Source: Amoebophrya sp. A120
Taxonomy: Eukaryota > Protista > Dinoflagellata
DNA: 64,000 bases
NCBI GenBank assembly: GCA_905178155.1
Contig: CAJINV010000011.1
Location: 431,914-495,913 of the forward strand
Reading direction: 5' to 3'
The notes beneath the pieces were generated by a model that was not told the DNA's origin, made no database searches, and was given only the letters and a program-made list of their open reading frames with translations. Numbering within the stretch: position 1 is the first letter of the stretch; every line of letters starts with the position of its first letter. Both the position numbers and the translations under genes were made by a program. Of this stretch, positions 9,001 to 57,231 are shown in pieces.

Positions 9001-12000
9001 TAGCCGTCGCGGATTTTCGGTTTCTTTTCGCGCATCTGGCGCTCTTTCCGCGCCTGCAAAGCGTCTGGGTCAAGTGTGTTCTTGCTGCGCTGGCACGCCA
9101 AATGGTAGTCGCCGAGCATCGTGAAACGGTTTCCGCAGTCCGCCGGCCAGCGCGGGTCGCCGTAGGAAAGCGGCGAGGTCGACTGCGACGACAAGACTCC
9201 CTTGCGGCCCAGCCCCACCATGGTAATCAGGGAAATCTTCGGTGCCAGCCGCACAAAGGTGTCGAGAAAACCCTTCATGTCCGGCTTTTCAAATTCGTCT
9301 TCCAGCTCGGGGTATCCAAATGCATAATATGTCTGGGGCTGCGTGAGTTCACATGTTTCGTTCCATGCGGTTTTTACATGTTGACCCAAAAGCTGCTGCC
9401 CTGGAATGCAAGTACTAGCACGCTACAGGTTTCATCGAGAAGGTCCCTCAATGTTGCGTATCCCGCTGCACGATGAATCTCTCACCTTAATGGCAAGACT
9501 TGGTCTACTTTTATTCCTGTCCACGCATGACAAATTTGTCTTTGTGTGTGATGTGAAATGCGCATCACAAGTTCGCGATCTTCCTGACCCAGACATGTTT
9601 GCGGTAAATACGTGGTCCCGCGGTGCGGGTACTTCGAAGTCGCGCCAGAATGGGTCCTATCAAATGCAAAAATGTCTGGGTCTGGAATATTGCTGGGGTT
9701 GTCATGCATAATTTGCATGACCGAGAATGTCCGTAATGCACGACCTAGCATCACAGATCTTTCCTAGAGGGCTTCCTGATGCCTACTCCGCATGACAAAT
9801 GCCCTCCCCGCGTAGCACAAACTAGACTCCTCTTGCTGGTCATGCAATACAGATTTTTTTAGAGTCCAAAGTTAGCATCACAAGTTCCAACCTTTCAGAC
9901 CCAGACATTTTTGCATTTGATAGGTCCGGCACGAAGGGATCCGGGCGTTTGTCGTACGTTCCCGGATGGTGGTACCACTTTTGCAGATGCGAATGCTCGT
10001 CGTGCAAGTACTGTCGCCAGCTCCCGTCGCGCCGGTCCACCGCTTCGAGTTGCGCCTCTCTCTTGCCCTGGACCACCATTGCGACGACCTGGTGGATGAT
10101 CATTTTTGCCATTTTCTTGAAGTCTTTCTTCAACTGCTTCTTCTTGAAAAACACCTTCCCCTGCTCGTAAATCTTCGCGATCTGGTCTTCAAAGTCGGGC
10201 TGCTTATCGCCGAGCAGTGCTTTTTGCGAGTCGAACATTTCGCCGAGCAAGCGCTGCAGCTCCTCTTCAGAGATTTCCTCGGGCTCCGAATAAAAACCAC
10301 TGTCGCAGCTGCTGTTGTCCGTACCATCGTCGTCAGACGACCAATTTGTTCTGTAAAAGTCTGCCGCGTGATGTTGCTGCTGCTGTAGTAGAGAGAACGT
10401 CGTAGCAGATCCTGAATTGTGTTTGACAACTGCTTCTGTCGGTCCGGATTTGTTTTCGCTTTCTCCAGCACCATCGGAACAAGTATCACTTTCAGAATCA
10501 CTACTGTCCTCTTCTGATAACGAATCCAGCACTTCTCTTTCCGGTGTCAGCCGCAGTTCCGCACCGCAAACGCGCGCGAGGTACTTTCGCATCGAGAATT
10601 TCGCCAGCACTTTCGCGAGCTTCTGCTGCGTCCACTTGTCTCGGTACAGTTCCACCCGGCTTCGCGGCAAGAGCTTGTCCACCTTCCGAAAGACGGAGTA
10701 GTCGATCCACCAATCTTGCACCCAATTCACGGCCAATTGCTCCTCGTTGTTTCCAACATCAGAGCTGTCGATGGAGTTCCAGTCGCTGCAGCGCCGCGGG
10801 TTGTCGGGATCTTCAGGTTCTTTTAGGGAATGTTGACTGGGGTCGTCCTCCAGGTAGTAGTCTTCGGAAGAGGAAGATGTAGAGAACAGGGATGAAACAT
10901 CTTCCCGTGCCAATCCATTTTTTGCCCAAGAAGCTAGTTCTTCGCTTGAAGAAGTAGGTGCGGAGGCGCCGCTGGATGAAAAAGATCCGGTGGACGATGA
11001 TCTGCCGCGGGTGTTGGTGGGGCGACGACGTAGAGATGATGACGTTCTTCCACATGAAGATTGAGAGCGTCGTCCTCCTGTACTGTTGGACGAAGTCATT
11101 TGTTGTTCCGAAGAAGAGGTGGAACTGCACGACCGCGAAGATGTTGTCCTCTTGCTGCTCATGTAGTTCTTACTTCTCCTTCGCCCCCGTTCGCCCACTC
11201 GTTGGCCGTGTTGGTAAAACCCATGCTTTTCCCTCCGCGCTTCTTCCATTTTCTCCCGTTCCGCCCGTTCCATCGCTTTCTCCCCTTCCCAACAGGTTTT
11301 CGCAGCCATGGACATCTGTTTCCGTCTCCCTTCCCGGAGTACTAGCCGCTTCAGGGGTTGGTAAGCCATCGTGCATTTTTGCATTTCAGACTTCATCCTC
11401 GCGAGAGTTTGTTGTACGTTTTTAGGGAGGTAGCGCATAGGAAGTAGATACGCGCACGGGTGAAAGAAGGGCAGCGCCGCGCCGACTTCCGTATTGTTGT
11501 GTCCTGCAAGTCGTGGTCTTTCAACTACCCCGGTGAAAATTTCTACCCCACACTGGTCTTTCAGTTGCTCGAGGAAATTTCCCAGTTCGAGCTGTTTCTG
11601 GTGCAGACGCATGAAGTTCTTCCAGTCTAAAACGTGGACTTTTTTCCGGACCGCGTGCGGCACTTTTTCCGCCAGGCCGACGCGAAACTGCTCGTTCGTA
11701 ATCGCATACCGCCAACACTGCTGCGACCGGAGATAGACCTGTTGCTTGGCGTCCTCAAGCTCGAGGGAATATGCGTGGCGCTGGAACACCTTGTCGCTAG
11801 TATAACGTCGGTAGAACCAGCACCCGTTCCTGTGCACGTACTGCAGAAGTGCTTTGACTAGCGCGGTCGCATTGCAGACAGAGGGGTCGGGTGTACGGGG
11901 AAAGCGAGGAGGACCTGTTGTAAAAAGTTGACTTGATCAGAAATGGGTCTATCCTCAAATGGCAACCCAAGGACGAACTTCATCGACCCACTTTATGCGA

Positions 12001-13096: not shown

Positions 13097-13249
13097 CGGG
13101 TGCAGACGGTCAAATTTCTCGCCCGATTTTTTGGTAGAAGGTTTATTTTTCGACAGATATTTTCGTATCCGCGCTGCAAACCGAGGTGCGAAAGACCGTG
13201 CCAGCTGAGAAGAATTGTTCTTGTCGTGCGAGGTAATACCAAATATAGC

Positions 13250-13930
13250 CGCCGGGGCGGAGGTAGTGAGGTCGTGGGCGTTTTCTTGCCGGCCGTCGCC
13301 TTGGCCGCGGCTTTGCTTTTTCTTGGCTCGCCATACCGCCGTGAGTAACGTTAGGCCGCACGGTATGGCGGCCGCTTGATAAACGTCGCAAATTTTGGCA
13401 AATTACCGAAATTCCTTTCCGAAGGCCAGCCCCCATGCTATGGGGCCGATCCAGGTGCCACGGGGGGCGCCCAAAAAGCGAAGAAAAATCGGGCCCATAG
13501 CATGCCGATTGGCTTCGCGCGTCTGGGGTGCTTTTTCTTTTTCGCGTTTTTATTTTTCACGCCAGCGCTTTCACAAAGCTTCCCAGGCTCTGAAACCGGC
13601 GAAAAGGCCGCCGCTTTCGCGGCCGCCAAAAATGCTCCGAAATCGCGGCCGTGCCATGCTGTTTCGCTGTTCTGATTTTGGGCGCGTTTTTTGCGCGCCC
13701 CTTTTTGGGCGCCCCAAATCGCCAGAAACCAAGGCGGTGGGCGCCTCAGAAGGGCGCCCCTTTTGCCGGCTCCCCTGCGTCGTTTTATCAAGTGCGAATC
13801 GATAGTTTTCGACCGGGCTTGTTTGCCGCAAACGCCCCGGCCGCTTGATAAGTGAAAACTTTTTATGCTCAAAAACACTTCCGGCCGCTTGAAAACTGCC
13901 GGTCGTTTTGCTGTCTGGCTGGCAAAAAAA
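13250..13930. other. GC-rich non-coding island (GC blocks alternating with A/T runs)
   Basis: Clear composition shift with many CGGCCG/GGCGCC palindromes. No credible protein in any frame. Confidence 0.5.
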
Positions 13931-13960
13931 CTCCCTGATTAGAACCGTTCGGTGACCTCA

Positions 13961-16900
13961 CTACATACAATTCAAATTTGTCCCGCCGGCACTGCATTTC
14001 TTGCCCCACTCGCCGCGCGCCTCAAGAACACTCGGCGGAACGCCCCAGGCGGTCTGCAATCGTCCAGAGAAGCGGCAGCGATGGTAGTAGATCTGGCGTT
14101 TTTTGCAGTACTCGAACTCCACACCTTGCGCGAACCCCGGGATGCGGTAGACCCCACGGAGGGGAATTTGTTTGTGTTTGACAGCGCCATCGGCTTTTCG
14201 AGTCGGGGCACAAGGAGAACGACTGGAGCTAGTAGTGGGAAAAGCAGATGACCTTCTCATGGTAGACGTGGTTTTTGACGCTTGCTGGTGTCCTCCTCGA
14301 TGAGCTTTGGCTGCAGCCTTCGAAGTCTGTCGCAGAAAAGATCGCGTTTTTAACGCCGTTATTTTTACCGCATAATCATCCCCCGACGTGGTTGTTGCAC
14401 AAAGACCTTGTTCTTCTCCGCTGGGGATACTCTGCACATCCAACCTCTCTTGTTCTGCTCTAATTCGCGCACACAAAGCGGAGCTACCCGATTCCACATT
14501 GCACCACTGCGCCGCCGCTGCCGCTAAGACTTGCAGCCGCGGCGGATTTTCAAAAACGCTGTGCGCCGTGCTGCGACTGCCCAGAAGCACGGACTCGCGC
14601 AACGCGTCCCCCGTCGTGGTCGCGGAGATGGCGTCGTCCGCCATGCGCCGCATGTCCACGGCCAGAAAGGTCATATCCCCGAGCTCCGGCCGCAGCAGGG
14701 AGTCTTTCACGGCTCCGGTCTTCTCCGAAACGACCACGTTTTCCAGGGGCAGCGGAATGCCGTCGCTGTTCCGCTTGAGCCCCTCTACTAAGTCCCGTAG
14801 AACGTTCTTCTGGCCGTAGGTAAAAACCGGGAACTTGCCGTAGCGGTGCGTGTCGATCTGCGGCCCCGTGCGGTTCACGATGTTGTCCCCCGTCTCCTCC
14901 TCTAGCCACCGCCGGTAGCGCGTCTTGTTTTTCTTCCTTCTGTCTCGCCGCTTCCGCCGCTTGCGCGTGGGCCGCTGAAACCAGTGCCAGTTCTTCTCCC
15001 GGGCGGTCAAAGTGTCCCGCTCCATCTTGGACTTCACCACGTCATACTCATCTTCGTCGTCGTCGCGACCAGACCGAAACGGCCGCTGGCCCCGCGCTCC
15101 CCACTTCCGCACCGTCTTTTTGTCGCCTTGGAGTTGTTCCCCCACCCGGCGTATCAAGTGTAAAAATGTCTGGGTCTGGAAGAATTCATGTTTGTCATGC
15201 TTGTCTGGCATGACTCTTAAATCTGTCATGCACGTTAACCAAGAGCTCCGTTTTTCTGTGATGCAGAAGCGTAGTTTGTCATGCAGAATAGGCAACACCT
15301 AGGAGCTCAGAAACTTGTCATGCTGAGCCAGCATTTGTAGCCTCATCATGAGACGCCACCCAGCATCACAAGTTTCCAGACCCAGACATTTTTACTTTTG
15401 ATACGGCGCATGCGGTTCGCGACGCGATCAAAATTTACCCGGTAACGCCGCCCGTCGAGCTCGGCCGCCATCAAATTCTTGCGGCGTATGGATTGTAAAA
15501 ATGTCTGGGTCTGGAAGGTTGGAACTTGTCATGCTAAGTCTGGATAGTGCAGAAATTTGTGTTGCATGATTACCAAAAGGCGTCCACGTGCGAACAAGTG
15601 TAGCTGCAGTTTGTCATGCGGGATAGACATGATCGAGACTTCACAGAACCTGTCATGCTAAGTCCTGCATTGCAGACCTCTTGGGGCATGCAAAATATGC
15701 ATGACAAATTCGCACTCTTCCAGACCCAGACATTTTTACAGTTGATACGGCGCCAGTGCTTGTCAAAAAAAGCAGGTGGACGACCAGGTGATGAAGAAGA
15801 AAAAGTGCTACTAGGGGCAGCTGCTGCAGAGTTGTACAAAGAAGAGCAAAAATTGACGGCGGGAGAAGAATTGTTCCTGCTCGTCGTCCCGGCGGAGTTG
15901 TAATAATTTGTTGGAAAAATTTGCTTACTACAATTTCGCAGATGACCGTCTTCTTCTTCTTCCACAGGAGGCAGCTGCCATTCCAAATCGTCAGCGCGAA
16001 TACTGCTGCTTCCAGTAGTTGTATCACAAAACCCCGGCAAAACTTCCTCTTTGCTGGACATTTTTAACTCTGCGGCCTGTGGGCCAGAAGTCAACCCGTA
16101 GCCCAGGATTTTGCTGCGCATTTCGTTGTCCTGTCGCGCGCGGCGAGCAAGGTTCGTGCGGACAACCTTCTCCCACTCCCAGGCGACAGTCGCCATCCTC
16201 GTCTTATCGCGCTGGGCATCCTGTGGTTTTATTTTGTTTCAACAATAGCAATAGGCCCGGGCGGCGAGAAGCACTTGGAACATGTTGAAGCTTATATTTT
16301 CTGAAAAAATATTAAACAAGGCCCGAGTTCCACAGTGGGAGCCCAAAAAAAAAATTTTACCTCCTTACTCATCCACCAAAGATCTTGGCTAACATTTTTT
16401 GGTGGAAGCCACAACGGCACTAATCTTTTCCCCCGTCTCGTCCGACTCCGATATGGATTGCAAATATGTCTGGGTCTGGGAGAATACACACTTGTGATGC
16501 GCATTTCAGGACACAGAAAAATCTCTTATGCATAGATAGCAGAAGCTGCCCACTTTCTGCCACCAAAATGGGCGATTTGTCATGCGTATTCGGCATTGCG
16601 GAAGCTTCTCGAAACCTGTGATGCTAGAGCTCCCATGCCAGACCTTCTGTGTTATGCAAAAACAGCATGACTCTTCCAGGCCCAGACATTTTTGCATTTC
16701 ATATCCGAAACAAGTCTTTCGCACGTCCCAGGCGTTTCTTCAACGGTCCGTTTACCCACTTTTCGCTGGGCCGCTTCTTCGGGTGGAACTTGCTGAGGTC
16801 TGCTTTTTTTGGTATTCGCAGTGCGGAGAGAGGCGCGTTGCGCACTCGGTGCAGCGGATTATCGGCGATCAACTTCCTCGTGTCCTCCGTGAGAATCCGC

Positions 16901-18886: not shown

Positions 18887-20627
18887 TTATCTGCTCCCGC
18901 CACTGTACTTGCTCGGCGGTAGAAACACCAGGTCCTGCGTTTTCGCCACGGTTCGGTAATCCGGCGTGCAGGAATACTGCAAATTCTGCGTCAAGAAGTC
19001 AAACATCTCCAGCTCTGCGTCCCTCTGCGGGTGATCGCGCACCCCCCAACCAAATTCCACCATCAAGACCGGCATGTTAACCATTTGCGATGTTGCACCA
19101 GAGCCCTGCTCGTCACTCGCTTGTTTTCTGGCCAGGTCGAATCCGCGTTGCAGCCAATTTCGCATCCCGCGCAGCACCTTGTATTCAGCTCCCTCCGTGT
19201 CGATCTTGATCAGCGCTGGCAGATGATTACGCATTTTTACGGAGGTAGACGCTCCTGCCGAGGACGATGATGATGATGATGATGATGATGATATCATTCC
19301 ATCCTCACCTCCCCCGTGGTCATTAAGTCCCAACGCCGCCTGCACATGGTGATCGTCCAGCCGGATTTGCTTCACCTTTACCTCCCGCATGCGTTGCCCT
19401 TTTGTTTGCTCCTGCACCATCGTGTTCCAACCGAGGTTGCCGTCGCTGGCTACGAACAGACTGGTCTCGCCGGTTTCGTCGGACACACAAGCAGGCACCA
19501 CGTGCAGATTCTTGTCGAACCGCCGGGAGTCGCGGATATACGCGGCGTACTCCGGCACGCACTCGAAGGCGAGGATCCGGCAGGTGGGGCACATATGCAT
19601 TGCAAATATGTCTGGGTCTGGAACGCTGGAACTTGTCATGCTAATTCTGGATAGTGCAAAAATCTGTGTTGCGTGATTTGCAAAAGCTGCCAACTTTTGA
19701 CCAAGTTGAGAGGCAGTTTCTAATGCAGGCGAGGCATGGTAGAGGTCGCGCAGAATCTGTCATGCTAAATCATATATGGCAGACATCATGTCATGGGTCA
19801 TGAAAAACCTGCATGACAAGTTTACACCCTTCCAGTATTTGCAGTGGATAGCACATGGCACGGATCCGCCCGGTGAACGCGCCGGCGTTCGCGCCGATGT
19901 CTAAAACTAGTGGCGGCTGCTGGTCCTCGTGTGGAGTTGTGCCACGACGATTATGATAGGGCGAATTATTTCTACTATTCACCTGTTGCAATGCTCGAAA
20001 CACAGCGTTGGGAATCTCCGGCAGCATGGCGGAAATTTGTCGATACCAACCATCCAGCTGGTATCTGCGGTTTTGGTCCAACGATGGCGCGGCAGCTGGA
20101 GAGAGAATCAGTGGCTCAAAGACGACCTCAGGCCGCGCGTGTGCAGGCCGTGAAGGCGGAGTAGCAATGTTAAATTGGTTCGATCTAGTCGTTGTTGCTG
20201 TCGTGAGAACTACATCTGTCGCAATGCTCTGTTCCACTTTCTTCGTTTCCGGAATTTTAACTGGTAGAGGAGGTGATGGTTCCGTACTGGTGCTGTCGCT
20301 CAACGCTGAGGTAGAAGTTCTGGAATTATGTTCTGGCGCCAGAAGATCTTCTGGATTTCTTTGACTCGTCGTTGCTCCGCGTGCAGAGGTCGACGGTGAC
20401 CCTCGAATATTAACTTCTTCACGTCGATTCCAACGCTTTTTTTGCCGTCGCACACGATACACAACCCGGGCGGAACGGGCCACGTCCTGACCTTCTGGGT
20501 GCGCCAGCTTGTTGTCCAAATTATCCGTCGCAACACGACCCATTAGACTGCGGACGTTGCCATATTGAGGGTGGCGCACACCGATGTAAGAAAGCACGAG
20601 GGACACGAGGAGAAACGGAGACAACAT
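18887..20627 (-). CDS. FkbM-family SAM-dependent methyltransferase with N-terminal signal anchor (about 492 aa)
   Basis: Motifs LVLDIGANAGAFT, ILAFEC, LIKIDTEGAEYKVLRG and VLMVEF. Two exons joined at AMC|PTC. Hydrophobic N-terminus MLSPFLLVSLVLSYIG. Confidence 0.85.
19594..19850. mobile_element. Introner F1 (right TIR has lost its ACCCAGACA core)
   Basis: Direct repeat GCACA. Removal restores the FkbM domain in frame. Confidence 0.9.
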
Positions 20628-21160: not shown

Positions 21161-21300
21161 TATGCGCTGTCGCTTTTTCTCTCAGTACTAGTTGCATTTG
21201 CGTTCGACGAAGTTTCGCGTTGTACCACTGGGCTCCTCCACCTAAAGCTTAAACACTTTTCAGACAGCTCCCAGCGGGCGGTCCCGCGACGTGGGCCAAG
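21161..21300. repeat. Dispersed non-coding repeat, copy 1 (others about 30737-30793 and 31350-31493)
   Basis: Shared CAGTACTAGTTGCATTTGCGTTCGACGAAGTT...TTGTACYACTGGGC...AAACACTTTWCAGACA. Confidence 0.75.
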
Positions 21301-30528: not shown

Positions 30529-30693
30529 TATGAACTGCAAAACCAAAACTATCGTACTCGTATAAATGCATTACAGACTTCATCAGCATGGGGAATAAAA
30601 TTTGTGGAATAAAATTTGTAATGCGGATTTCCCTTGGGAAAAAGATTTGTAATGCATGATTACAGTACGAGTACGATACTTTTGCACAGGATA
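30529..30693. mobile_element. Introner F4 outside any annotated gene
   Basis: TIR, direct repeat TGATC. Confidence 0.85.
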
Positions 30694-42918: not shown

Positions 42919-45464
42919 CTATCTGTTGTTTACTGCGTAGTAACCTCCATTTTTCCTCTTCTCTTTCTCCTCCTCCCGCAACTCTGCACAGGTCCGCTTG
43001 TGCAGCGGCCAGTGCTTGTGCTGGCAATGCGTCGAACAGTAGAGCGCGCGCCCGCACTTCTGACACAGCAGCGTCGCGTTCTTCACTCGACACCGTGCGC
43101 AGACCATCACAAACTCCGACGCGTCACCAGGCTGTTTTTTACCGTCGTTGTTCACGTGTGTTGAAGTCATTGCTTTCCGTGGGGAAATAGTTCTTCCCAG
43201 TCTTCCCGATGACGACGGACTGGCCGGACAAGTTGTTCTTGCATCTCTGTCATCCACCTGCTGTGTGCCGGAAGTAGAAGTCAGTTTGTCATTGTCGCCT
43301 CCAGATCTTGCAGAAAGCAAATCTTTATTCCCTGATCCACGTTCCGCGTACACCCACCCAGTGAGGTGTCTTTTTCGCAAGAGGTCCAAGGGCGTCAAAT
43401 CCAACTCATCCGCGTTGTGGTACAACTTCTCAGTAAAAGCACCCTCAATCTCCATCTCGTTTCGACCATTTGGATTTGGATTTCCATTCGTTCCCTGTGG
43501 TCCACCATCCTGTGTAGTTGAAAGAGCAAACATCAATTCCCTCCCTCCTCCTCCTCCGCCGCCCTCGCGAATGGCCCTCCACAATGCCTCCAGTGTGCCG
43601 TACCTATCCCGGCTCAAAGCCGCGAAGTGTAATGCCGTGCGCTCGTGCATTTCCACGGCGTTGCCCGCGGCGTCTTCGGGTAGTAGTTTTTCATCCACCA
43701 AAACGATGGCCTTGTGCGCCAGAAGCAGTTTCACAATGTCCGTGGCGCCGGACCGGCACGCGTGCATCAAAGCTGTCGTGCCTGTTCTGGCGTGCACGAC
43801 ATTCACGTCTAAATCGCACTCGGCGACGAAAAACTCGCACACCTCGCGGTGCCCCGCCCCGGCCGCGATCTGCAAGGGGGGGAGAGCGTACCCCGAGTCC
43901 ACCTCGATGTTGTTTATCTTGCGGGAAGGGGATGAAGCAGTAGTGTCGTGCAGGTTGTTCCCACGACCAATCCGGCGAGACGACGGACTCGGCGAAGTAG
44001 ATTTGAACTGATTTCCTCCCTTCGGCGAAGTTGATAATGGCGAAATAGCACAGGTTGTAGGTTCTTTTATCATCATCGACGCGACTTTTTCGCGCCTGGT
44101 CAACACGGAATCCGTATCCGCCGCTAAAGTAGTCGTGTTGGTACTATTGTTCGTCGTCCCTTCGCTGTCTGCCACGAACTTGTGCAACAGCGCGACGGAC
44201 GCCTGCGCCACGTCCTCCGCGCTTGCTGCCTCCTCACTGTCAGAAAGGAAAACTTCCTCCGCCAGTGTCGCACAGCGGTTTTTCAACATCATGCGCTTGG
44301 TAGAAGCGGCAGACGACGCGCTGGCGCCGAAGAGCTGTGGTTGTTGTCCTCTTGTTGCGGTCCCACTGTTCGGACTGGGACTCGTGCTCGAGGGTTGATG
44401 CGATGAAGTGGTTTTTAACATGATTGCCGTCGTGGTTTTATTTGACGTCATCCTGGTACTTTTATTTTTCCCAAACTGGAACCCGTGGTCCCGCGCCAGC
44501 TTTTGCAAAGCCTCCAGGTTCCCCGCGAATGCGGCGAAGTGGAGCACACCCCATCCGCTGTGGTCCAACAGCTGCAGGTCCGCGTGGTGCAGGAAGAAGT
44601 CGATTATATCATCAGTGATGTTCAAAAGCGTCAAGTAGTGCAAGCAGGTCATGCCTGCCGCCTTGTCCTGGATGTCTAAATTCACGGTCGGCCAGTTGGA
44701 ACACAGCAAGTGCATCATCGCGGTCTCGCGGTCCTTCGCCGCGACCAGCAACGGCGTGTCTCCCCGGCTGTTTACCTGGTTCCACAATTTCGTGTCATTG
44801 TTAACATTCGGCGACTGGAGGTAGGTGCGAATTTTGTTCACCTTGCCTTGTTATCAAGTGCAAATATGTCTGGGTCAGGAAGAATGCATGTTTATCATGC
44901 TTGTCTGGCATGCCTCTTGAGTCTGTCATGCACATTACCCAAGAGCCCCACTTTTCTGCCATGCAGAAACGCGGTTTGTCATGCAGAAGAGGCAACACCT
45001 AGAAGCTCAGAAACTTGTCATGCTGAGCCAGCACTTGTGGCCTCCTCATGATACGCCACCCAGCATCACAAGTGTCCAGACCAAGACATATTTGCAATGC
45101 ATACTTGTTCCACCGCACGGATGATGATCATTTTGCGTTCCTCGGTACTCAACAAATTCTCTTCCTGCTTCGCGACGTCCTCCATCACGCTGAAGCTACG
45201 CCGTTTTACCGTCGTGCGGCGCCGACTATTGCTATTTTCCGGTGAGTTGTTGCCGCTTGGAGCGCCGGTTGGCGCACCTTGTTGTTTTCCGTGGTCCGGT
45301 GAGCTGTCAGTGTGGGATTCGTTTTGATGTTCTAAAAACCCGCTGCGGTCCCCGCTGTTTAAGCCCTCCATGGCGTAATTCACCAAAAACCGACGCAGGT
45401 TGAAAAACCGCCGCCTGGCGCGCTCGTGCAACCGCCATTCCCTCTGCAGGTCCGGGAAATCCAT
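42919..45464 (-). CDS. Ankyrin-repeat protein with C-terminal MYND zinc finger (about 762 aa)
   Basis: Ankyrin motifs GDTPLLVAA, GMTCLHY, GWGVLHFAAFAGN and GTTALMHACRSG. MYND CARC...CQKCGRALYCSTHCQHKHWPLHKRTC. Junction VEQ|GKV. Confidence 0.88.
44852..45103. mobile_element. Introner F1
   Basis: TIR, direct repeat CTTGT. Confidence 0.92.
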
Positions 45465-46840: not shown

Positions 46841-49636
46841 TCATTTGACGATCCGGATGCCCGTCAGCAACGCGGGCCCTGCTCCACCGCGGACTGACGA
46901 ACGGCGGTCGGTCAACCTGGAGGTGGTTTTTTTCACAGGCAACCCGCTCACTGCATTTGGATCCGCATCGGATTTGCTCTTCGTGACCGGCCTGCTCGTC
47001 GTAATGTGCGCCGCACCAGCTGCACTCGACGAGAAGCGGTTGCTCGGCGCCTTGATTGCGCTGGAAGGACCGCCTGCCGTGTCGAAACCGCCAATCAGCA
47101 ACGCCGGACCCTGAAAGGACTTGCGCCGAACAGGGGATGCTAGGGGCTCAGACTTGGTGCCGGGAACACCAAGATTGGACGAGTTCTTGCCGCCCTGCTT
47201 ATGCATTGCAAATAAGTAATCTGATTACATCTGGAATAGTGCAGAAGTTCTTTGATGTTTTCATGCCCCACCAGGTCTGGAATGCAAGCCGAAGCATCAC
47301 AGATATCCAAAAGCTTTCTCGTCATGCCTATAATTCCACATGCGATAGCATCAACTATCCGATCTCCACAGGTGGATAGATTTAAAATCTGCTCTTCATG
47401 CAAGACAGATTTTTGTGTCAACACAACCATACTATGTCATTAGCATCACAAGCATGCATCCTTGTCCTTCCTCCAGAAACAGGAGATGGATCTATATTTG
47501 CAATGCATAGTTCTTCCTCTCGGGCTTCTCCTGGTGCGTCACCATTGCGATGGCAGCGGTTAGGTCGTCTGCAGCTGGAATGCGAGTGGAAAAACTGTCA
47601 TTCCCGAGGTGGTCCGTCGTTTCATTCTGAAAACGCATGGCGGGGCTGCAAGGGCTGCTGTCTGCACCTCGAGCAGTCGTGGTATCGGCCTTTCCTCCAC
47701 CACGCGTCGGAGATGTTGACGTCGACCCGGTGATCTTCTTCTTTTTCTTCTTGACCACTTCTTGCTCCTGTTGTCCTTGTCGCTCCGCCGATTTGGATTT
47801 GCTTATACTTTTCGGCCGCGTGGGGGGCGTTCGGGCATTCTGCAACGCAGCGGCGAGATTTTGGCAGCTGGCCGAGGTTTTGATGTTCGAGGTGGTTGCT
47901 CGCAGCGAGGACTTCCGGCGGTCCTGGTGCAGGCTGCTGCCAGTTTTAGGACCACACGACACTGCTCCTGCTGTTGGTTTTTTGATGTTACTGTTACTTT
48001 CGACTCCTGGTTCCTTGTGAAAAATTTTGCTCGCCCCCGAAGCAGGAGGAGGCGCACGACCCTGCTCATCATGAACTTCACGTGCAGTAGTTGTACTGGA
48101 AATACGAACGAGGATTGATGTACTGTCGTGCTCGAGGTTGTGACCATGTTCTATTTGTTTGTAGAAGTTGCTTTTCCTTTTACTGCTTCTTCGGTTCGTT
48201 TCTCTGCTCGTCTCTCCGCTCATCTTCCGAAGCGGCGATGCTGCCTGGCCGCCATCATTGTTCATCATCTCACCTCCGACGCACTGTTCTTTTGACGCCC
48301 TTCGCGGAGCAGATGAGGACTGTTCTTTTGACGCCCTTCGCGGAGCAGTATTAATGGATGAGTGTAGTTCTACTTTCTTGGCATGTTTACTAACACCGCT
48401 TTTGTTTTCGGCCGGAGTATTTCTTGCTGTGCTCCTGCGTTTTCGTCCTGCCGCCGGTGGTGGAATACTATCGTTCATCGATCCGCTTCTCTTCAAGTTA
48501 AAGGGCATCGTGGTCCACCGCATGACGAATCCGGAAAGTCGGCGGAACACATTTTTCAGCGGCAGTGCAGCAAACTGAAAAGCAGACCACGTCTGCTGCT
48601 GCGAGGACCATTGTGGCTCCAGTGAACGCTTGTTGTCTTGCGAGAGCGGAAAACTGCTCGTCGGTTGGTGGTGACGATTCTTGTGTAGTGCAGCCTGTGG
48701 CGCGGCTGCTCCGAACGCACCTCCAAGAACCTCGCTCGTCGAGATGAACGTCTTCACTTCGTCCCGCGGCTGCCCGGCTGCGGCGGGAACGGGATCAACG
48801 TCGAGCCGACGCAATAAGAACTCTTCCTGGTCTTCAAAAAGCTGATAGGAGCGCCGGGCGGAAGAGCTTGAAGGGCTGCAACACGACGGTGAGGAGTGCG
48901 CCAGCAGCCGGGTCAGCGAGTTGTTCTTACACACCGAGTGCCAGGAGACTGATTGACGGATGGGCTCCGGAGAAATAAGTATCCCAAGTACGCCGTCATC
49001 GTCCTCCAGGCGGGGTAGGCATGGTGGACTCAGGCTCCGCTCTGCGTTAGCCGCTGGTGGCACTCGTTCTTGTTCCACTCTTTTTTCATGTTCGCGTTCA
49101 CCGGCTGCTTTTGTCTTCGTAAAAAATCCGCCACCGGCGGTCGCACGCGCGCGGAGGTCATCTTTTGGTAGAACAGAGTGGAGTTGTCCAGGCCGCTTTT
49201 GATGATCCTCCTGTACGAAGAGGCTCGGGGCGCTGAACCTGCGCACCATAGTGCCCCGCGCAGAAGATCTTGAGCGGGCTACTAGTTGCTCCGGACGAGA
49301 CGTCGCTGAGCACTTGGCCTCGGTAAAATTCATTCCACGAGCGGCCTTGCTGAAAATCTCTGGCACCGGAATAATGGAGATCCGTTGGACGTCATCTAAC
49401 ATCTTCCCGTCGTGCACTTCCCGACCGCTGGCTGAGCACCAGCGGCAGGTGCTGCAAGGCAAGCAGGAGACCGCTCTTGTCCAAACACTACTACAGACGC
49501 TGGAGGAGGTCGCGCAGCAGCTCCTCGCTTTCTCGCATTTTTTGTAGATGATGAAGAAGCCAAGAACAACAGCGAACACCGCACCTGAGATGGCGACGGA
49601 GACAAGGAAGGTCTCGTTTACGACGGGCGCGGCCAT
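46841..49636 (-). CDS. Hypothetical single-pass membrane protein, largely low-complexity (about 826 aa)
   Basis: N-terminal TM FLVSVAISGAVFAVVLGFFII followed by a Cys cluster. ORFs 47492..49636 and 46841..47206 join in frame. Confidence 0.7.
47200..47509. mobile_element. Introner, F1-like and degenerate
   Basis: 15-bp TIR TATGCATTGCAAATA, direct repeat CTGCT/GTTCT. Frame restored by removal plus 5 nt. Confidence 0.78.
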
Positions 49637-50914
49637 GGCGAGTGGAACTCAATTCTTGTTTTCAACTAACTTGTGCTCTGTACAAAGTACCACAGTAATT
49701 TTCAACCAAGGGTGTACCTAAACAATTTCAAGACCACACATTCTAATGTTAGCTCCGGCCTCCGCCTCGTCCCACCAAAAATATATATCGATCAAGCCGC
49801 TTGTACTATGGTGTATAGTCATGCAAGTAGAGAGAGAACAAGTAGAGACACTTCTAGTACAAAGGATTACCGCATAATTCCCCTTCCTCCCCCAAAACTA
49901 AACAAAGATTCGGTGCCTCGTTCGAGCAGAACAAAAGCGGTGTGCTTGACGTGCAAGAGAAACCATACCAATACAATTTTTGTCTGCGTTTTTGTTTTTA
50001 TTTAATTACACAAAATAAAAAATTCAGAGCAGCCATCGTGCTGGTTGAAGTAAATCATAGAATTCATGTACTTGAGAATCATGGAGGTGGTACCTAGTAA
50101 GCGCGCCTGCACATCTGTAGACAAGAAATCATAGGAAAACGCCAACATCTTCTGCCTGCGTGCTTTTTGATTTACACTTCTGTACTTACCTCTAACGTAA
50201 GCCCAGAAACGAGCACGAAGTGCAACCATAGCCGCTACAACAAACTTTTTCTTGCGAGTACGACAAAAAAAGCAACTCAGCCTGAAAAAAAAACTCGCTC
50301 GACGTCAAAAAAGGCAGCGGAAGCTGCTCCTGCTCCTCAATAGAATTAGGACAACTACTACTAAGTAGAGTGAAGTCCCAACTCTGCACGTCCTCTCAAC
50401 GAGGCACGACACTGCGTGTCGAAGGTGGCCAGAGGAATCAATAAACAAAGAACCGAAGGCAAAAACAAAGACACGACGACGGACTAGTTCCACAAAACTA
50501 CTTCTTAGTTCCATACAGAAAAAAACACCGACCGACAAGTCATCGCTTTGCAAAGTTAAGTGACTCTCTTTGCTGTTTTCGACGAACAACCAACTACAAC
50601 TCCAAAGCTTGGCTCTTGCGCGAGAAAAGCCTTCTGAATCAGCCAAACGCTGACCACAACTTTAGCCGTCGTGTACGAGTACGATGATGTTTCCTTCTAT
50701 TTTACCTTGAGTACTTCTATCGATCCGTGCGTCTTACTCTTGCGGAGCAAGCGTCTGCGAAGTGAAGTTAAGCGAAAACAAACCGTCAGCAGTGTAGCTG
50801 TAAGTGTACTAGTTCTAGGGTCGTACTAAACCTAGGAAAAAGTTTTTAAGCGTTATGATACTAGATGGGTAATATTATAACAAATTGACAGAACTGCAGC
50901 GTCTGTAAGTATGC

Positions 50915-53900
50915 TCAGCTGAACCTGAGCCCCAGCACGGCCCGTGGCGGCGGACCACCGCCAGATTTGTTTCTGGGAAACACGTCGCCGAGATAGGCGG
51001 ACGGAACGATGTCTGTGCCGTCGGGGTGCTGGAGGTTGAGCCGCTCGGCCGCGGTGCCGGGTAGGCGGTTCTCGAAAAGCAGCAACAATTCGAACACCGT
51101 GGACAGCTCGTTGCACTCCACGCGTTCCGAGAGATTGTTGGGAAAAAACGAACTGGAAATGCTCAGAACCACCGTTTGGGCTTGCGTCGTCGAGCTCCCC
51201 TCGGGTCGTGAAGCTCTACTACTTGTTCTACTACTGCCTATCGCTTCTATTCGGGCTTTCAACCGGTTCTCTATCGCCTCCTGCTGTGTCGGCGGTATGT
51301 TATTCCGCTGCTCCACTATGCGGATGAGTTGCACTGTGGTTTTTGGCGTCACGTACAGGTCGCGCAATGTTCGAGTGTCGCCTTCCGCCATGCATTTCCC
51401 ATCGATCAGCAGCAGCTCCGTGCGCTCGGCGGCCTGTTATGGGTTGAGTGATGGTATGTGTCTATTCGTCTTTGTTTCATCAGAGGACAAAATTGTGTAG
51501 AAGAACTGACGTTGTGTAGTGCAAATAAATTATGGATTGAAATGTTGAACATTAGCATGACGTGCTGCCCACAACACTTATCGTGCAGCACATGCACAGG
51601 TCTCTACAAAAATAAACCCTATCTATACCTCCTCCGCCACCGACCCGCTGCTACTTGCTATCCTGTGCAAAAGTATCGTACCCGTTCGTAGTAATTGCAA
51701 TCATGCATTACAAATCTTTTCCTTAAGGCAAATCCCCATTACAAATTTAATTTCTCATGCTGAGGAAATTTGTAATGCATTTATACGAGTACGATGCTTT
51801 TGCGGTTCATACTTGCTCGGGAAAGGCAATGTTTCCGCAAAATTTCCCGGAGCTCTGACACCGTCTGGTCGTGCGCAACCTGCATCCTATGCATTGCAAA
51901 AATATCGTACTAGTTCTAGTATGAATTGCATCACAAATTTTTTCAGAAGGAAAAACGGAACTTGTCATGCTGAATTACCTCTAGAAATCACATCTGTCAT
52001 GCAAGTCTTGCATTTATACGAGTACGATGCTTTTGCAATGCATACATCCGGGCCGAGTACAACTTTTCTTGTGTGGAAGCTGTTCCACTGTTTGATGTCC
52101 CTCGTCTATTTGGCGATAAACTGCTGCTGTTCGTCGCACCAATACCAAAATTCGTTTCCCTGAACGGCTCAAACAGTTTCGCCTTTTTCGCGGCTTCCAA
52201 CTTGGTCTGGAACCGATTTGGCGAGTTCACGATGCGCGACACCTGCTCGTTGACTGCGACCGTCGGCGTGGGTGTGAAAGTAGTCTTTGGGGAAGATGGG
52301 TTGGAAGGCGTGGCCCCACCTATTGGGGGTAGGGAGAACGAAGATGTAGTTGTACTGGAAGAGGTTGTTGTAGCGGTCGTTTTGAGTAGCGGAAACGGGA
52401 GTTCCACGTTGACCGGAAACACGTCCTTGTAGTCGAGCCAAAAAACCCGAACGGGACTGGAACCCGTCCCAGAAAACACGTTGCCTGCGATCGTCACGTC
52501 AGACCTGGTCGGTGTAGAAGTTAGAGAGGCATTTTCACAACAGAGTCCGCAATAATTCGCCTCTAATGCTTGCCAAACAAAAAAAAAAAGCTCGATGAAT
52601 TAAAGCGAAGGAGCAAGCATTTCTGTATACCCTTCCTGCCCGCCCTCCTCTTTCCTCTGCAACAACTCCGGCGCCAAAGGGATGTAGGACGCCACCGTGC
52701 GGCTATCCTGCCAAGGCAGCTCGTCCGACGCGGAAAAAAGGTCGAACCGCCGCCCCAAAAACATGTCCCGGTAGACATAGAACAGGCCGTTTTTGAAGTC
52801 CGCCACCGTCGTATCCGAAAACACCGCCATTTTCTGCACCTGCGCGACGCTGCTGGATTTGGAAGAGGATGAAAATGGCGCCACTACGCTCGGCAGCATC
52901 ACGTCGCGGAACGGCACGTAGACGATTTTCCGCGTTTTGCTCAAGGGCTCGATGCTTAGCAAGTACCGTCTCGCAAGCTCGTCGCGCTCTGCCGGAGAAA
53001 CGGAGAAGTCAACTGCGGCCGGGCGCTGATGTTCTTGACCCCTATTAGTACCCGCGGTACTAGGAGATGATGCTGAAAACCCTCCCTGAGACGCCATTTT
53101 CAAGCTGCTTCTATTGGGAGAGAGCGCGAGAAACACCCCCCGCTCCTCTTCCTCCCTCATTCTCTGCTGCCGCGCTTTTTCTCTCGTTGCTTCCGCATCG
53201 GAAAAGGGAAACCAAAAACAGGCCCCGTTGAACAGTTCCGCATACAGTTCCTTCGTGCGCGCCTGCCGCGTGCTCACGGGGAGCGTAAACTGCACCTGCT
53301 TTACGGAGGGGAGCTGTTTCAGAACTACATTCGAGGAAGTAGATGCAGGAGGTCTTCCCGGAAGATCTTCTGGTGGTCCACAAATACCTCCTAGAAGTTC
53401 TACTGCTGGCGTTCGTAATATTGTTTCCCTTTGTTCCGTGGTGCCTGCATCTGCCAGAACCTGGAACAGTTTTTTCTGCAGCCTTTTCTTCCGTTTCCGA
53501 ACGTCCTCCGGCGCGAATTTCCGCCTCTCTTTCGCGGGCGGCACTGCAAACGAGCTCCGCCCGCTGCTGCGGATCGACGAGCTGGCGCCCAGCCGGTCCG
53601 AAAACGCGCTTTTTCGGGATTATCAACTGTAAAAATGTCTGGGTCTGGAAGGTTGCAACTTGTCATGCTGTTTTTGGACTCTAAAAAAATTTGTAATGCA
53701 TGACCAGCAAGAGGGGCGCAATTTGTGCTACACGGACAGGGCATTTCTCATGCGGAAGGTGCATCAGGAAGCCCTCTAAAAGTCTGCAATGCTGGGTCAT
53801 GCATTACAGGCATCCTGGGTCATGAGAAATATGCATCACAAAGCTTGCATTCTTCCAGACCCAGACATTTTTGCATTTGATAGGGATCCCGTCAACCCGA

Positions 53901-56900
53901 ATCCGGACGACGCCGAGGAACTGCAACTGCTACCGGTTGTATATCAAATGCAAAAGTGTCTGGGTCTGGAAGAATGCAACTTGTCATGCTAAATCTGAAC
54001 CAGGCGAAAACCTGTGTTGCATGATTGCCAAAAGCTGTGCACTTTTGACCTAATCGAGAGGCAGTTTCTTATGCAGCTTAGGCATTAGAAAGGTCCCGCA
54101 GAATGTGTCATGCTATGTCATGCATACCAAACCTCATGGGTCATGGAAAACCTGCATGACAAATCTCGCAATCTTCCAGACCCAGACATTTTTGCAATGC
54201 ATATTGCACCTTCATGAACTAACTTCCGGGCCCTCTGCAGCGCTTCCTGCTGCGCGGTAATCAGCGCAGCCATTGCGGACCGGAGATCCGACCGCTTTTC
54301 CTCCAGATCCCGCTGGGCGCTCACCTCGGCGCGCAGCCCGGACAGCGGTTTATGCAAAAGCAAATTGCAAAAGTTGTACTACCGTAGGGATAGGTACTCG
54401 TACAAATTTTTGCACAGTCAGTCTATCTTCATGACAGATGACAAATTCTCTTTTTCCTTGTTCAGTTTGCAATGCAGGAATTCCTACATTAGTACGGTAG
54501 CGGTACTACTTTTGCAGAATTGCATACTCTTCCAGTTCTAGCAATTCCAGTTCCGCTGACCGCAAGGTCGTTCGAGCACTGTATCCTTTGTAAAAACGTC
54601 CCCAAGAAACGAGTTACGCAAACATTTGTAATGCGCATCCCCGTGAGTGTGAGAGGAATTTCCAATCGTGCTTTGGGAGAATTTGTAATGCTTTAAACAG
54701 GATAAGGAGACGCATTCGTTATGCGGGATCCCTTGCAAGACTAGGACTACACGACACTACAGCGAAAATAAACTTGTCATGCGTGACTCCCAAAACTTCT
54801 GAACCTGTGCTGCAGCTGTTCCCAAATCGACTGTAGCGCGCGGACGTTTTTACGCAGGATACGCGGCGGATCTCGCCGTCTACCGAGAGCTCCTCTTCGG
54901 GCGGTTCCTGCCGATCCTCGGACAGTTCGCCGAGTCGCAACCGCATCTGAATCACCAGCTCGTCCACGGTCAACCGGTCTGGGTTTTTCGCCAGCAGCGC
55001 CTCCTTCAACGCGACCAAGTCGAGCGGCGTCGGCGCCGCGCGTCCCTCCACGGACGGCGGGCCCGAGCGGGAACTGACTTTCTTCATCTTGTCGGCTGCG
55101 GTGGTGTCCAGGTTGCCTTCTACGGCTGCGTCGCTTGCCGCGGTAGTGGTGCCACCTCCGATCTTCGTCGGCAAGGACTTCGCACTGCGCGCGCTCTTTT
55201 CGCTCAACACGTCCGACTTGTCTTGTTTGTTATCGTTAGTACCATCGTGGTCCGCTGCGGCTTTGTCCCCTGTATCAGCCCCGCCCTCAGTAGTAGGTTC
55301 TTCTCCTTTCGCATCCGCATCACCGTCGTTGGGTTCATTTTCTTTATCCGCAGCAGTATTCTCTTCTTCTGGTTTCTTCTCTTCCTCCGGGGCCGCGGCT
55401 TCTTCTGGTTTCTTCTCTTCTTCACCAGCGGCTCCTTCTACCGCGTCCGGAGCGGCTTTTTCGACATTATTTTCATGTATTTTATTCGTCTCACCAGCGT
55501 TTACATCCTCGTCTTTATTTCCGTCCTCTCCGGCCACTGCTGCATCTTCGCCCGGTGCAGACGCGACGCTCTTCGCCGCAGTATCTGCCGTGTTGCCTTC
55601 CTCCTATGCATTGCAAATATGTCTGGGTCTGGAAGGTTGGAACTTGTAATGCTAGCTTTCCATACCTAGGAAACCTGTATTGCATAACCAACAAAGGTCG
55701 CAACCTCTTTTGTACATGCAAACATGCAGTCTGTCATGCGGATTGCCTGTGAGAACAAAACGTTCTGGAAAGTTGTCATGCTAGGTTGCATTCGGATCGG
55801 TTTCCACCATCCACATTTTAGCATCACAAGTTTCCAGACCCAGACATTTTTGCAGTTGATACCTCCGCAGGAGCTGCAACTTCCGACTTCATCGGGGCTT
55901 GCAGCGACGCCGACGCGCTCCCCGTTGTTCCTGAAAGGCCGCCGTCTGCAGCTGCTTCTTCAGGTACGTCGTCCAGCAGTCTGGTTGCCGCTTGTTCTAT
56001 CCCAGCTGGTGCCGTGGCTTCTGGTGCCGGCTCGGCTGTTTAGGAGTTCATCAGGAGAATTCGATTTGGACATTAATTCTTTTTATGTTTCCTTTTATTC
56101 CGCCCGAAAAGTGAACTGATCGGCGCGAGAATAAATCTGTGTGTCAACAGTCTATCAAAAGACCTTCTGTGCTGCTCTCGACGTCGATGAGGATGAATAA
56201 AACGCAAACTCAATAACTCATGAAAAAAAAAAGCCCTCAGGTCCCTCTATACCTTCCAAATACGCTTTTGCAACACCCGTGACAAACGCGGCGTAGTCTT
56301 CCGCAGAGCTCAAATGCAGTCTCCACAAGTCCTCCACGTTGGGCTTCGGCAGCGCCAAGTCTGGTTCCTCCAATTTCAGCACCAGAAACTTCACGTAGTC
56401 CTCAAAATCCTGTTCTGTGTCACCGTCGTCGCGGCTGTAGACCCGCTTATATAAATCCAGCAGCTCCTCCGGACGTGGAATGTTTGTCATCAAACTGTAG
56501 AAATTCACCACCATTTTCTTCAGCGTTGGGTCTTCCTCCTCGGATAGAAACTCGGGAGGAGGCTTTTTCAAGAAAGGAGCATTCGGGTCAACTTCTCCCG
56601 CAGAAATACCCCCTTTAGCGGACGAGGACGAAGAGGCGCTGCTACCGGTCGTGCCCTCACCTAGGTAGTTTTTTTTTCGCAGGATAGCTTCTCGTTTTTT
56701 GTAATAAATGTTGAAAGTGAGAAGTACAGGCAAGAACATATTTTTACGAGTTGCGATAGCAAGGAGACCTTGACAAAGAAACGTGAATCAGAGTCAATCG
56801 AACGAAGCTGTCCAGAAAAAAAAAATTATCCAACCTGCCGTGCTGGATTTGGAATTGCTACTGCTGCTACTTTTCGATGACCCGGATATGGCAGTGCACA

Positions 56901-57231
56901 ACCCCCCCTGCTCCCCCTCACTTGTATAGCACGAACGGCAATACACGCATGAGCAAGAGTGTCGGTTTTGCATGACAAATTTGCACTGGATTGTAGTGCT
57001 ACTTGGGCTACTAGAACTCGTAATGCAAACAGTGCCAAGAGGCAAAGGGTGGATTGGGTATTTTGCGTGACAAATGAGGCGGAGGGGGGAGTTGTGAACT
57101 CTCATACCGGAAGAAGCGCTGCTTGAACCGGACGAAGATGCGGAATCATTGTCCGACTCACCTCCACTCCGAGCGGGCGGCGCCTCTGCCTCCGCGGGCG
57201 GTGCAGGGGGCTCCTCGTTGTTCTCACTCAT
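50915..57231 (-). CDS. Hypothetical protein with acidic region, coiled coil and 2-3 ubiquitin-like domains (about 1,265 aa, 13 exons)
   Basis: Joined via 8 introners and GT-AG introns 56661-56834, 56036-56252, 52505-52630 and 51434-51628; 3798 nt open. UBL-like QVAHDQTVSELR...LLIDGKCMAEGDTRTLRDLYVTPKTTVQL and DTTVADFK...DSRTVASY. Confidence 0.6.
51659..51811. mobile_element. Introner F4
   Basis: TIR, direct repeat CTTGC. Confidence 0.9.
51888..52044. mobile_element. Introner F4
   Basis: TIR, direct repeat CATCC. Junction ARM|QVA. Confidence 0.9.
52505..52630 (-). other. Predicted canonical GT-AG intron
   Basis: GG|GTATAC ... CTCTAAC (branch-like) ... ACCAG|G, phase 2. Confidence 0.6.
53621..53882. 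mobile_element. Introner F1
   Basis: TIR, direct repeat GGGAT. Junction TGS|RKS. Confidence 0.92.
53942..54203. mobile_element. Introner F1
   Basis: TIR, direct repeat TTGTA/TTGCA. Confidence 0.9.
54351..54526. mobile_element. Introner, F4-like and degenerate
   Basis: Eroded TIR (TGCAAAAGTWGTAC..TACCGTA), direct repeat CGGTT/CTCTT. Junction LEE|LSG. Confidence 0.75.
54582..54861. mobile_element. Introner F3
   Basis: TIR, direct repeat CACTG/CGCGG. Junction IRR|ART. Confidence 0.82.
55605..55861. mobile_element. Introner F1 (can also be read as GT-AG)
   Basis: TIR, direct repeat CCTCC. Junction PAE|EGN. Confidence 0.92.
56887..57106. mobile_element. Introner F7, reverse orientation relative to 28970-29205
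   Basis: TIR, direct repeat CCGGA. Junction SSG|SSK. Confidence 0.88.

What the first reader, a model, noticed from the sequence alone, without database searches (positions are those of the whole stretch)
9658..57106. The same introner subfamilies occur in both orientations within co-oriented genes
Seen: all host genes are minus-strand, yet element interiors occur both ways. 35178-35439 and 53621-53882 are reversed relative to 9658-9922 and 28630-28921. 1165-1428 is reversed relative to 16452-16703. 15487, 19594 and 53942 are reversed relative to 24245. F7 28970 is reversed relative to 56887. Known: spliceosomal introns are polar (donor, branch point, acceptor). Inference: the removal signal is symmetric and carried by the TIR ends or stem, so an insertion in either direction is immediately tolerated.
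Basis: partly seen in the sequence, partly recalled or inferred. Interest (0 to 1): 0.8.

Follow-up and report, generated by a model that had tools for sequence, protein, structure and literature searches.

The report
Two-way introners with a one-way cut
In the marine parasite Amoebophrya, small already-published jumping elements sit inside genes facing either way and are missing from probable-RNA contigs in both directions without normal GT-AG borders, likely because a loosened splicing machine reads their mirror-image ends and cuts at a fixed, lopsided offset.

Summary
Observation confirmed: 9 of 9 named pairs have reverse-complement interiors, and 34 of 35 elements interrupt minus-strand reading frames. 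They are the TAT…ATA, 5-bp-duplication introners published for Amoebophrya A120 (Farhat 2021). One probable-RNA contig skips two opposite-facing copies of one family 76 nt apart, plus four GT-AG introns. With 139 outside loci, 7 of 7 families of six or more copies occur both ways, mostly near 1:1; one subfamily is 17:37. Only 20 of 264 copies could use GT-AG. The ends carry the signal, but removal is likely polar: four damaged duplications fit one shared cut, 1 nt before TAT and 4 nt after ATA. That cut mimics the host's own GTAT donor. A role for the stem was not shown. Two-way introners are already known (Polarella, Aureococcus), but the Polarella ones use GT/GC/GA-type donors and lean to one orientation. 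This scan's earlier notes report the same pattern on other DNA of this genome. Verdict: new variant of a known kind.

The parts
1165..1428 (.). introner, ~260-nt superfamily, orientation A, perfect 5-bp TSD
   Evidence: frame restored in 1879-aa minus ORF
1968..2290 (.). introner, ~322-nt family, opposite to 25314
2329..2607 (.). introner, ~280-nt family
2946..3096 (.). introner, ~150-nt family, same way as 51659
9313..9610 (.). older introner, orientation A (like 1165), imperfect TSD
9658..9922 (.). introner, ~260-nt superfamily, orientation A
15152..15403 (.). introner, ~260-nt superfamily (252-nt subfamily), orientation B
15487..15747 (.). introner, orientation B, opposite to 24245
16452..16703 (.). 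introner, orientation B, opposite to 1165
19594..19850 (.). introner, orientation B, one inner TIR shortened; skipped with one TSD in a contig
   Evidence: (join 19588-19851)
22376..22536 (.). introner, ~150-nt family, same way as 51659 (weak call); skipped in contigs
22599..22902 (.). introner, orientation A; removed in published gene model
23973..24181 (.). introner, ~210-nt family; removed in gene model
24245..24518 (.). introner, orientation A, opposite to 15487/19594/53942; removed in gene model
24820..25202 (.). introner, 383 nt, family not resolved; removed in gene model
25314..25634 (.). introner, ~322-nt family, opposite to 1968; removed in gene model
25671..25891 (.). introner, orientation B; removed in gene model
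28630..28921 (.). introner, orientation A, imperfect TSD; gene model keeps the upstream TSD base
28970..29205 (.). introner, 'F7' family, opposite to 56887; removed in gene model
30529..30693 (.). ~150-nt family copy outside any reading frame
35178..35439 (.). introner, orientation B, splits a calpain domain
   Evidence: gap-free junction against 9 of 9 homologues tried
44852..45103 (.). introner, 252-nt subfamily, orientation B
47200..47509 (.). older introner, probably orientation A, imperfect TSD
51659..51811 (.). introner, ~150-nt family, one orientation; skipped in contigs
51888..52044 (.). introner, ~150-nt family, opposite orientation; skipped in the same contigs
53621..53882 (.). introner, orientation B; skipped in contigs
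53942..54203 (.). introner, orientation B, imperfect TSD; skipped in contigs, brackets the cut
54351..54526 (.). older introner, orientation unresolved, imperfect TSD; skipped in contigs, brackets the cut
54582..54861 (.). introner, ~280-nt family, imperfect TSD; skipped in contigs, brackets the cut
55605..55861 (.). introner, orientation B; skipped in contigs; reads GT-AG in the inferred register
56887..57106 (.). introner, 'F7' family; skipped in contigs
61461..61624 (.). introner, ~150-nt family, same way as 51659; skipped in contigs
62192..62401 (.). introner, ~210-nt family, imperfect TSD; skipped in a contig, brackets the cut from the other side
   Evidence: table 8
63307..63460 (.). introner, ~150-nt family, same way as 51888
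63529..63813 (.). introner, ~280-nt family
50666..57452 (-). host transcript: one 4268-nt contig skipping 8 introners and 4 GT-AG introns; 1280-codon open frame
22478..29749 (-). host gene (glycosyltransferase domains); published 1664-aa model removes 8 introners

Best explanation
These short elements with terminal inverted repeats and 5-bp target duplications sit in genes facing either way and are absent, together with one duplication copy, from probable-RNA contigs in both orientations; they are likely non-autonomous DNA transposons, likely removed by a relaxed spliceosome that reads the identical ends and likely cuts 1 nt before the 5' TAT and 4 nt after the 3' ATA. Shown: the anatomy, both orientations, exact removal of element plus 5 nt, and no need for GT-AG. 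Inferred from 4 informative copies, assuming one shared rule: the fixed -1/+4 cut, which runs with the transcript and not with the element. Inferred: the 5' TIR supplies positions +2 to +4 of a GTAT-like donor whose +1 comes from the target site, and the 3' TIR likely supplies a branch or ruler signal a fixed distance from an unconstrained acceptor. The terminal stem may help to bring the ends together but is not shown to be required. Because both TIRs are the same, turning the element round changes only the interior, which carries no needed signal.
For: One 4268-nt contig (run X1; the same joins in X3) skips 51659 and 51888, which match the ~150-nt family profile on opposite strands (72 vs 17 bits and 44 vs 14 bits), and also four GT-AG introns. 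12 of the 28 elements in the two laid stretches show an element+5 join. The published gene model removes element+5 at 8 of 8 sites, including 24245, 28630 and 28970. Both orientations occur in 7 of 7 families with 6 or more members. The 5' and 3' end logos of 264 gene-oriented copies are alike; 1 of 32 positions reaches p=0.04 uncorrected. Cut position: 54351 and 54582 allow only 0 or 1 nt upstream of TAT, 62192 only 1 to 5, 53942 0 to 3; 1 is the only value that fits all. That cut gives N-TAT, like the GTAT donor of 3 of 4 contig-verified canonical introns. GT-AG is possible in 20 of 264 copies against 9.6 +/- 3.1 by chance, half of them in this register. G is first in 7 of 12 verified elements (p=0.035). 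Intron phases become 119:67:78 with phase 0 ahead. All nine leading non-canonical A120 site pairs in Farhat's Table S4 have T second, and many are half-canonical. The paper found all but 6 of 89 spliceosomal proteins.
Against: No lariat, branch point or spliceosome dependence was observed. 244 of 264 copies have no GT-AG in any register; in the inferred register only 91 start with G and 27 end in AG. U1 snRNA was not detected in this organism (Farhat). The register rests on 4 copies, and only one (62192, one contig of depth 3.6) excludes a cut exactly at TAT. A codon-based test of the register on 36 damaged duplications was uninformative (15 vs 18 at positions 1-4). The phase-0 excess fits a cut at 4 nt equally well. 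The GT-AG and G excesses are small and uncorrected for several tests. Private changes in the terminal motif are not clearly rarer than in the interior (18 of 1475 vs 217 of 11804, p=0.09). 6 of 264 copies lack the first T, 2 of them with clean duplications. For the ~260-nt superfamily only one orientation was seen joined in contigs; the other rests on a gene model and open frames. The tool marks the runs as RNA only by guess.
Confidence: 0.55

Rival explanations
1. A structure-guided, non-spliceosomal (or spliceosome-independent at the recognition step) system removes the elements: the two TIRs pair into a stem, and an endonuclease and ligase cut at fixed distances from its base, as proposed for Euglena nonconventional introns.
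For: The ends are predicted to pair equally well in both directions (mean pairing probability of TIR positions 1-14: 0.70 sense, 0.71 antisense, 100 copies). Splice dinucleotides are nearly free. U1 snRNA was not found. Euglenid nonconventional introns also have a lopsided stem, +4..6 with -8..-6, and their authors argue for separate factors. 19594 is spliced although its inner TIR is shortened, so a short outer stem or motif suffices.
Against: No excess of G-U over A-C mismatches on the transcribed strand (122:109 and 147:150; derived changes 88:68 vs 572:543 in the interior, p=0.27). Positions 4 and 7 of the outer stem pair in only 130 and 95 of 264 copies while the motif positions stay fixed, which looks like sequence reading (or transposase needs). 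The inferred cut recreates the host's GTAT donor and carries the GT-AG excess. Half-canonical sites are common in A120, whereas hybrids are rare in Euglena.
Confidence: 0.32
2. Both orientations are spliced but not equally well; the minor orientation is tolerated only partly, and selection or insertion bias skews the ratio as in Polarella.
For: The largest subfamily is 17:37 (p=0.009; 0.11 after correcting for 12 subfamilies) and the pooled superfamily 70:99 (p=0.03). Roy et al. report a bias for every two-way class they name in that passage.
Against: Five other subfamilies of 20 or more copies are 14:18, 10:15, 11:10, 11:9 and 8:8. Retention would break the frame in 260 of 264 copies. Opposite copies are joined in the same contig. 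This rival can coexist with the best explanation.
Confidence: 0.1
3. The elements are excised from DNA (like ciliate IESs, recalled) or are absent from the strain that gave the contigs, so the joins are not RNA splicing.
For: The tool calls the runs RNA only by guess. DNA excision would be naturally blind to orientation.
Against: The same contigs skip four GT-AG introns and match the exons without a single difference in the listed pieces. Farhat et al. describe these as RNA-seq-supported introns. The retained duplication bases follow the transcript direction.
Confidence: 0.03

Closest known systems
Amoebophrya sp. A120 introner elements (Farhat et al. 2021, PMC7789003; seen: abstract, sections 10, 11, 12, 16, passage search, supplement searches and part 3 of 5; figures not held)
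   Same: Same organism label on a 100%-identical protein. IR begins with TAT, seven looser bases, then AAA; direct repeats of 3-5 nt; ~240-nt non-canonical introns; co-oriented gene blocks; hairpin proposed; no dinucleotide signature.
   Different: In the text searched, 'orientation' refers only to gene orientation, and the Fig. 3 legend calls the border position variable or unknown. Here both orientations are counted, shown joined in contigs, and one fixed -1/+4 cut is inferred.
Two-way introner-like elements of Polarella glacialis (Roy et al., bioRxiv 10.1101/2020.10.14.339549; seen: passages and section 5)
   Same: TSD-flanked elements that make introns in either orientation; class 12 has a 5-nt TSD with the donor split between the TSD's last G and the element's first base, the same geometry as here.
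   Different: Those classes need fitting target sites (GHNN, AGGH, NNAGG and the like), use GT/GC/GA donors and lean to one orientation.
Aureococcus anophagefferens introners (Huff et al. 2016; paper not held; known only through passages)
   Same: TIR and TSD DNA-transposon introns reported to insert in both orientations.
   Different: Described as having canonical splice motifs with one site co-opted from the TSD; here no canonical motif is needed.
Euglena nonconventional introns (PMC12501133, passages; PMC11282704, passages)
   Same: Non-GT-AG introns with terminal inverted repeats, ambiguous direct repeats, a lopsided stem position and a proposed MITE origin.
   Different: Different motif (CAG/CTG), circular excision products and few hybrid sites are reported there; no such products were examined here, and hybrids are common in A120. 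'Orientation' does not occur in that paper's text.
Fritillaria borealis non-canonical introns (bioRxiv 10.1101/2025.08.15.670264, passages; PMC11282704, passages)
   Same: TIR-transposon-derived introns whose non-GT/AG sites come from the TIRs and are attributed to an altered U2-type spliceosome.
   Different: They have preferred site pairs (AG-AC, AG-AT); here the first base and last four bases come from an unconstrained target site.

Membership tests
Amoebophrya A120 introner elements | terminal inverted repeat starting TAT, 7 looser bases, then AAA | tested here: met
   end logos of 264 copies; definition
Amoebophrya A120 introner elements | direct repeats of 3-5 nt at the borders | tested here: met
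   5 of 5 bases matched in 125 of 148 pattern-found copies, 4 of 5 in 19
Amoebophrya A120 introner elements | repeated in families across the genome | tested here: met
   families; copies up to 97% identical in 139 outside loci
Amoebophrya A120 introner elements | removed from transcripts at non-GT-AG borders | tested here: met
   12 element+5 joins in probable-RNA contigs; 1 of the 12 can read GT-AG
Non-autonomous TIR DNA transposon (MITE-like) | TIRs, fixed-length TSD, short, no coding capacity | tested here: met
Non-autonomous TIR DNA transposon (MITE-like) | a cognate autonomous transposase | not tested
   no genome held; Farhat et al. report none in A120
U2-type spliceosomal intron | GT (or GC) donor and AG acceptor | tested here: not met
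   GT-AG possible in 20 of 264, G[TCA]-AG in 38 of 264, in any register
U2-type spliceosomal intron | branch-point adenosine and lariat | not testable with these tools
   only contigs were available; no lariat reads
U2-type spliceosomal intron | polar geometry fixed to the transcript | tested here: inconclusive
   one register fits 4 informative copies and the gene model at 28630; sample small
Euglenid-type nonconventional intron | terminal base-pairing required for excision | tested here: inconclusive
   stem predicted; no G-U excess; no functional test possible
Euglenid-type nonconventional intron | CAG...CTG terminal motif | tested here: not met
   motif is TAT...ATA; Euglena motif

The most novel reading that the evidence does not exclude
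Amoebophrya A120 has an intron-definition code with no splice dinucleotides: a machine that has lost U1 (or a second, non-spliceosomal machine) reads the transposon's own terminal repeat and measures -1/+4 from it, so any insertion, at any target sequence and in either direction, becomes a perfectly excised intron. The host would have made a whole transposon superfamily harmless by treating its ends as the splice code.
Probability: 0.4. Interest if true: 0.8.

Novelty: new variant of a known kind. Interest (0 to 1): 0.5.

Why it matters
How Amoebophrya removes tens of thousands of non-GT-AG introns was left open by the genome paper. Orientation-blind removal restricts every needed signal to about 14 terminal bases plus target-site spacing, and the inferred -1/+4 cut gives exact borders for what the paper called unknown. 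That makes the question directly testable: lariat sequencing at a predicted distance, re-annotation of all borders, and minigenes that separate motif from stem. It also explains how such elements can spread: no suitable target sequence or direction is needed. The surprise is tempered because the elements are published and two-way introners are known in other algae.

Tried and rejected
No match in viral contigs. No RNA holder was listed for 9000-18900. Raw RNA runs X9 and X10 laid only short partial matches and gave no junctions. X7 covered mostly repeats and showed no exon joins. 16 of 28 elements in the laid stretches show no join row, but 10 and 14 join rows were hidden and many exons had no cover, so this says nothing on retention. 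A contig end near 23967 is compatible with splicing of 24245 but equally with retention, so it was not counted. De novo prediction of canonical introns to build a host donor logo was too noisy and was dropped; only the 4 contig-verified introns are used. The codon-usage test of which duplication base is exonic was uninformative. The G-U versus A-C test for stem selection was negative but has low power. The private-substitution test for selection on the ends was not significant. No Rfam family, including snRNAs, was found in the window. Rejected: that reversal is an artefact of internal palindromes (self-reverse scores at most 49 against 86-245); that hosts lie on mixed strands; that all copies use cryptic GT-AG within the duplication. 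Literature: the searches found no paper reporting element orientation or a fixed cut for Amoebophrya introners. The library lacks most subscription papers (Huff 2016 not held), figures are not held, supplements of the Gozashti papers were not opened, and bioRxiv supplements are closed.
Full report
Observation. The window holds 35 short elements (151-383 nt, 13% of the window) bounded by TAT...ATA terminal inverted repeats and a 5-bp target duplication: 31 picked from the de novo list, 3 from a relaxed search and 1 revealed by a contig join. 150 shuffled pairs reached at most 6.5, and an interior against its own reverse complement at most 49 (alignment). Removing element plus 5 nt restores long minus-strand frames for 34 of 35 elements; 30529 lies in no frame. 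Pfam domains were found on the minus strand in 8 of 20 exon pieces.

What it is. A 1664-aa protein 100% identical to a window exon is labelled Amoebophrya sp. A120 by its source. Farhat et al. 2021 (PMC7789003) describe A120 introner elements with inverted repeats beginning TAT, 3-5-nt direct repeats, co-oriented gene blocks, over 60% non-canonical introns, no dinucleotide signature and no detectable U1 snRNA. The elements are therefore published. The passages and supplement text I searched do not mention element orientation, and the Fig. 3 legend calls the border positions variable or unknown.

Are both orientations removed? Probable-RNA contigs (the tool only guesses RNA) show element+5 joins for 12 of the 28 elements in the two stretches laid: 19594 and 22376; 51659, 51888, 53621, 53942, 54351, 54582, 55605, 56887, 61461 and 62192. 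Hidden rows and missing cover leave the other 16 open. One 4268-nt contig skips eight elements and four GT-AG introns, which fixes it as a spliced minus-strand transcript. In it, 51659 and 51888 lie 76 nt apart and match a family profile built from 36 outside copies on opposite strands (72 vs 17 bits; 44 vs 14 bits). This is the direct evidence for two-way removal. The opposite copies 24245, 28630 and 28970 are removed exactly in the published gene model, 8 of 8 sites, which is an annotation and not my own read evidence. The calpain junction at 35178 is gap-free against 9 of 9 homologues tried, out of 120 listed. Retention would break the frame in 260 of 264 copies.

How common is each orientation? 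A TIR pattern found 139 loci, all in one public assembly (partial scan). They gave 148 pattern copies and 167 further de novo copies, with 0 de novo hits in 72 kb of shuffled sequence. A codon model trained on window genes called the host strand with an open junction for 117 of 315 copies, against 10 and 9 when 4 or 6 nt were removed instead of 5. A looser locus-level call covered 114 of 139 loci and agreed with the strict call in 104 of 106 copies; its check on the window is not independent of training. After removing duplicates and adding 33 window copies (340 in all), 7 of 7 families with six or more members occur both ways: 70:99, 16:20, 9:13, 6:12, 4:5, 6:2, 2:4. At subfamily level the six largest are 17:37 (p=0.009; 0.11 corrected), 14:18, 10:15, 11:10, 11:9 and 8:8. 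Orientation is thus close to random, with a possible twofold skew in one subfamily.

Where is the signal? In 264 gene-oriented copies in open frames (of 293 with a strand call), the duplications have no consensus and the 5' and 3' end logos are alike. GT-AG is possible in some register in only 20 copies (chance 9.6 +/- 3.1; antisense control 7). Perfect duplications hide the cut, but damaged ones expose it. 54351 and 54582 allow a cut 0 or 1 nt before TAT, 62192 1 to 5 nt, and 53942 0 to 3 nt, so 1 nt before TAT and 4 nt after ATA is the only shared rule. The gene model at 28630, which faces the other way from 53942, also keeps the upstream base. Weaker support: half of the GT-AG cases fall in this register (NNAGG 10 vs 4.4 expected, p=0.015 uncorrected); G is first in 7 of 12 verified elements; phases become 119:67:78 (p=2e-4, but a 4-nt cut gives the same); and all nine leading A120 non-canonical pairs in Table S4 have T second, though aligner preferences may shape that list. 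A codon-based test was uninformative. The cut yields N-TAT, like the GTAT donor of 3 of the 4 verified canonical introns.

Motif or stem? The ends are predicted to pair equally in both directions, but there is no G-U excess on the transcribed strand, and outer positions 4 and 7 pair in only 130 and 95 of 264 copies. The terminal motif is strongly conserved across copies, which transposition alone could explain; private changes there are not clearly rarer than in the interior (p=0.09). 19594 is spliced with a shortened inner TIR. I therefore favour a relaxed spliceosome reading the outer motif at fixed spacing (0.55) over a stem-measuring, Euglena-like system (0.32). No branch point was observed; that step is inference.

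Comparison. Two-way introners are described for Polarella (several classes, orientation-biased, GT/GC/GA donors and constrained target sites) and, second-hand, for Aureococcus. Gozashti et al. 2022 allowed for opposite-orientation insertions in their search method (passages); the 2025 paper treats A120 introners as diverse transposons (passages). Euglena and Fritillaria offer the two mechanistic models (diplonemid paper passages added nothing on orientation). What differs here is two-way removal with essentially free splice dinucleotides and free target sites.

Earlier notes of this scan on other pieces of the same genome report the same two-way removal and 1+4 cut. I looked them up after forming this reading; they are unreviewed and are not counted as evidence.

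Verdict. New variant of a known kind; interest 0.5.

Noticed in passing
window:58256-60527: Contigs of X3 and X4 skip a 2272-nt GC-richer block of 8- and 18-nt tandem repeats and ~730-nt duplications inside an AT-rich stretch downstream of the 62940-61366 frame. It has no GT-AG and no TAT...ATA/TSD anatomy, only a 2-nt TA overlap. It is either a long non-canonical 3'-UTR intron or a DNA presence/absence difference; no similar DNA in the window or the 139 loci.
   Followed up: partly
window:22376-22536: The published gene model ends inside this element, whereas contigs of X3 and X4 skip it, so the annotated C-terminus is probably wrong.
   Followed up: partly
window:51434-51628: A canonical GT-AG intron that begins GTAT and has ATA four bases before its end, the same geometry as the inferred introner cut; it may be an old introner that has become canonical.
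   Followed up: no
window:13240-13970: A non-introner repeat between two genes draws contigs and raw reads from several runs with many differences; probably another repeat family.
   Followed up: no
window:15152-15747: Two neighbouring introners of different subfamilies have the same 5-bp duplication sequence; chance or local re-insertion.
   Followed up: no
window:22354-29782: One gene joins three glycosyltransferase-type domains (GT47 exostosin, DXD sugar-binding, UDPGT/GT28-like) and carries 9 introners; no other protein of 1590-4540 residues matched it.
   Followed up: no
window:30529-30693: A ~150-nt family copy with a perfect duplication outside any reading frame, so the elements are not confined to coding exons.
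   Followed up: partly
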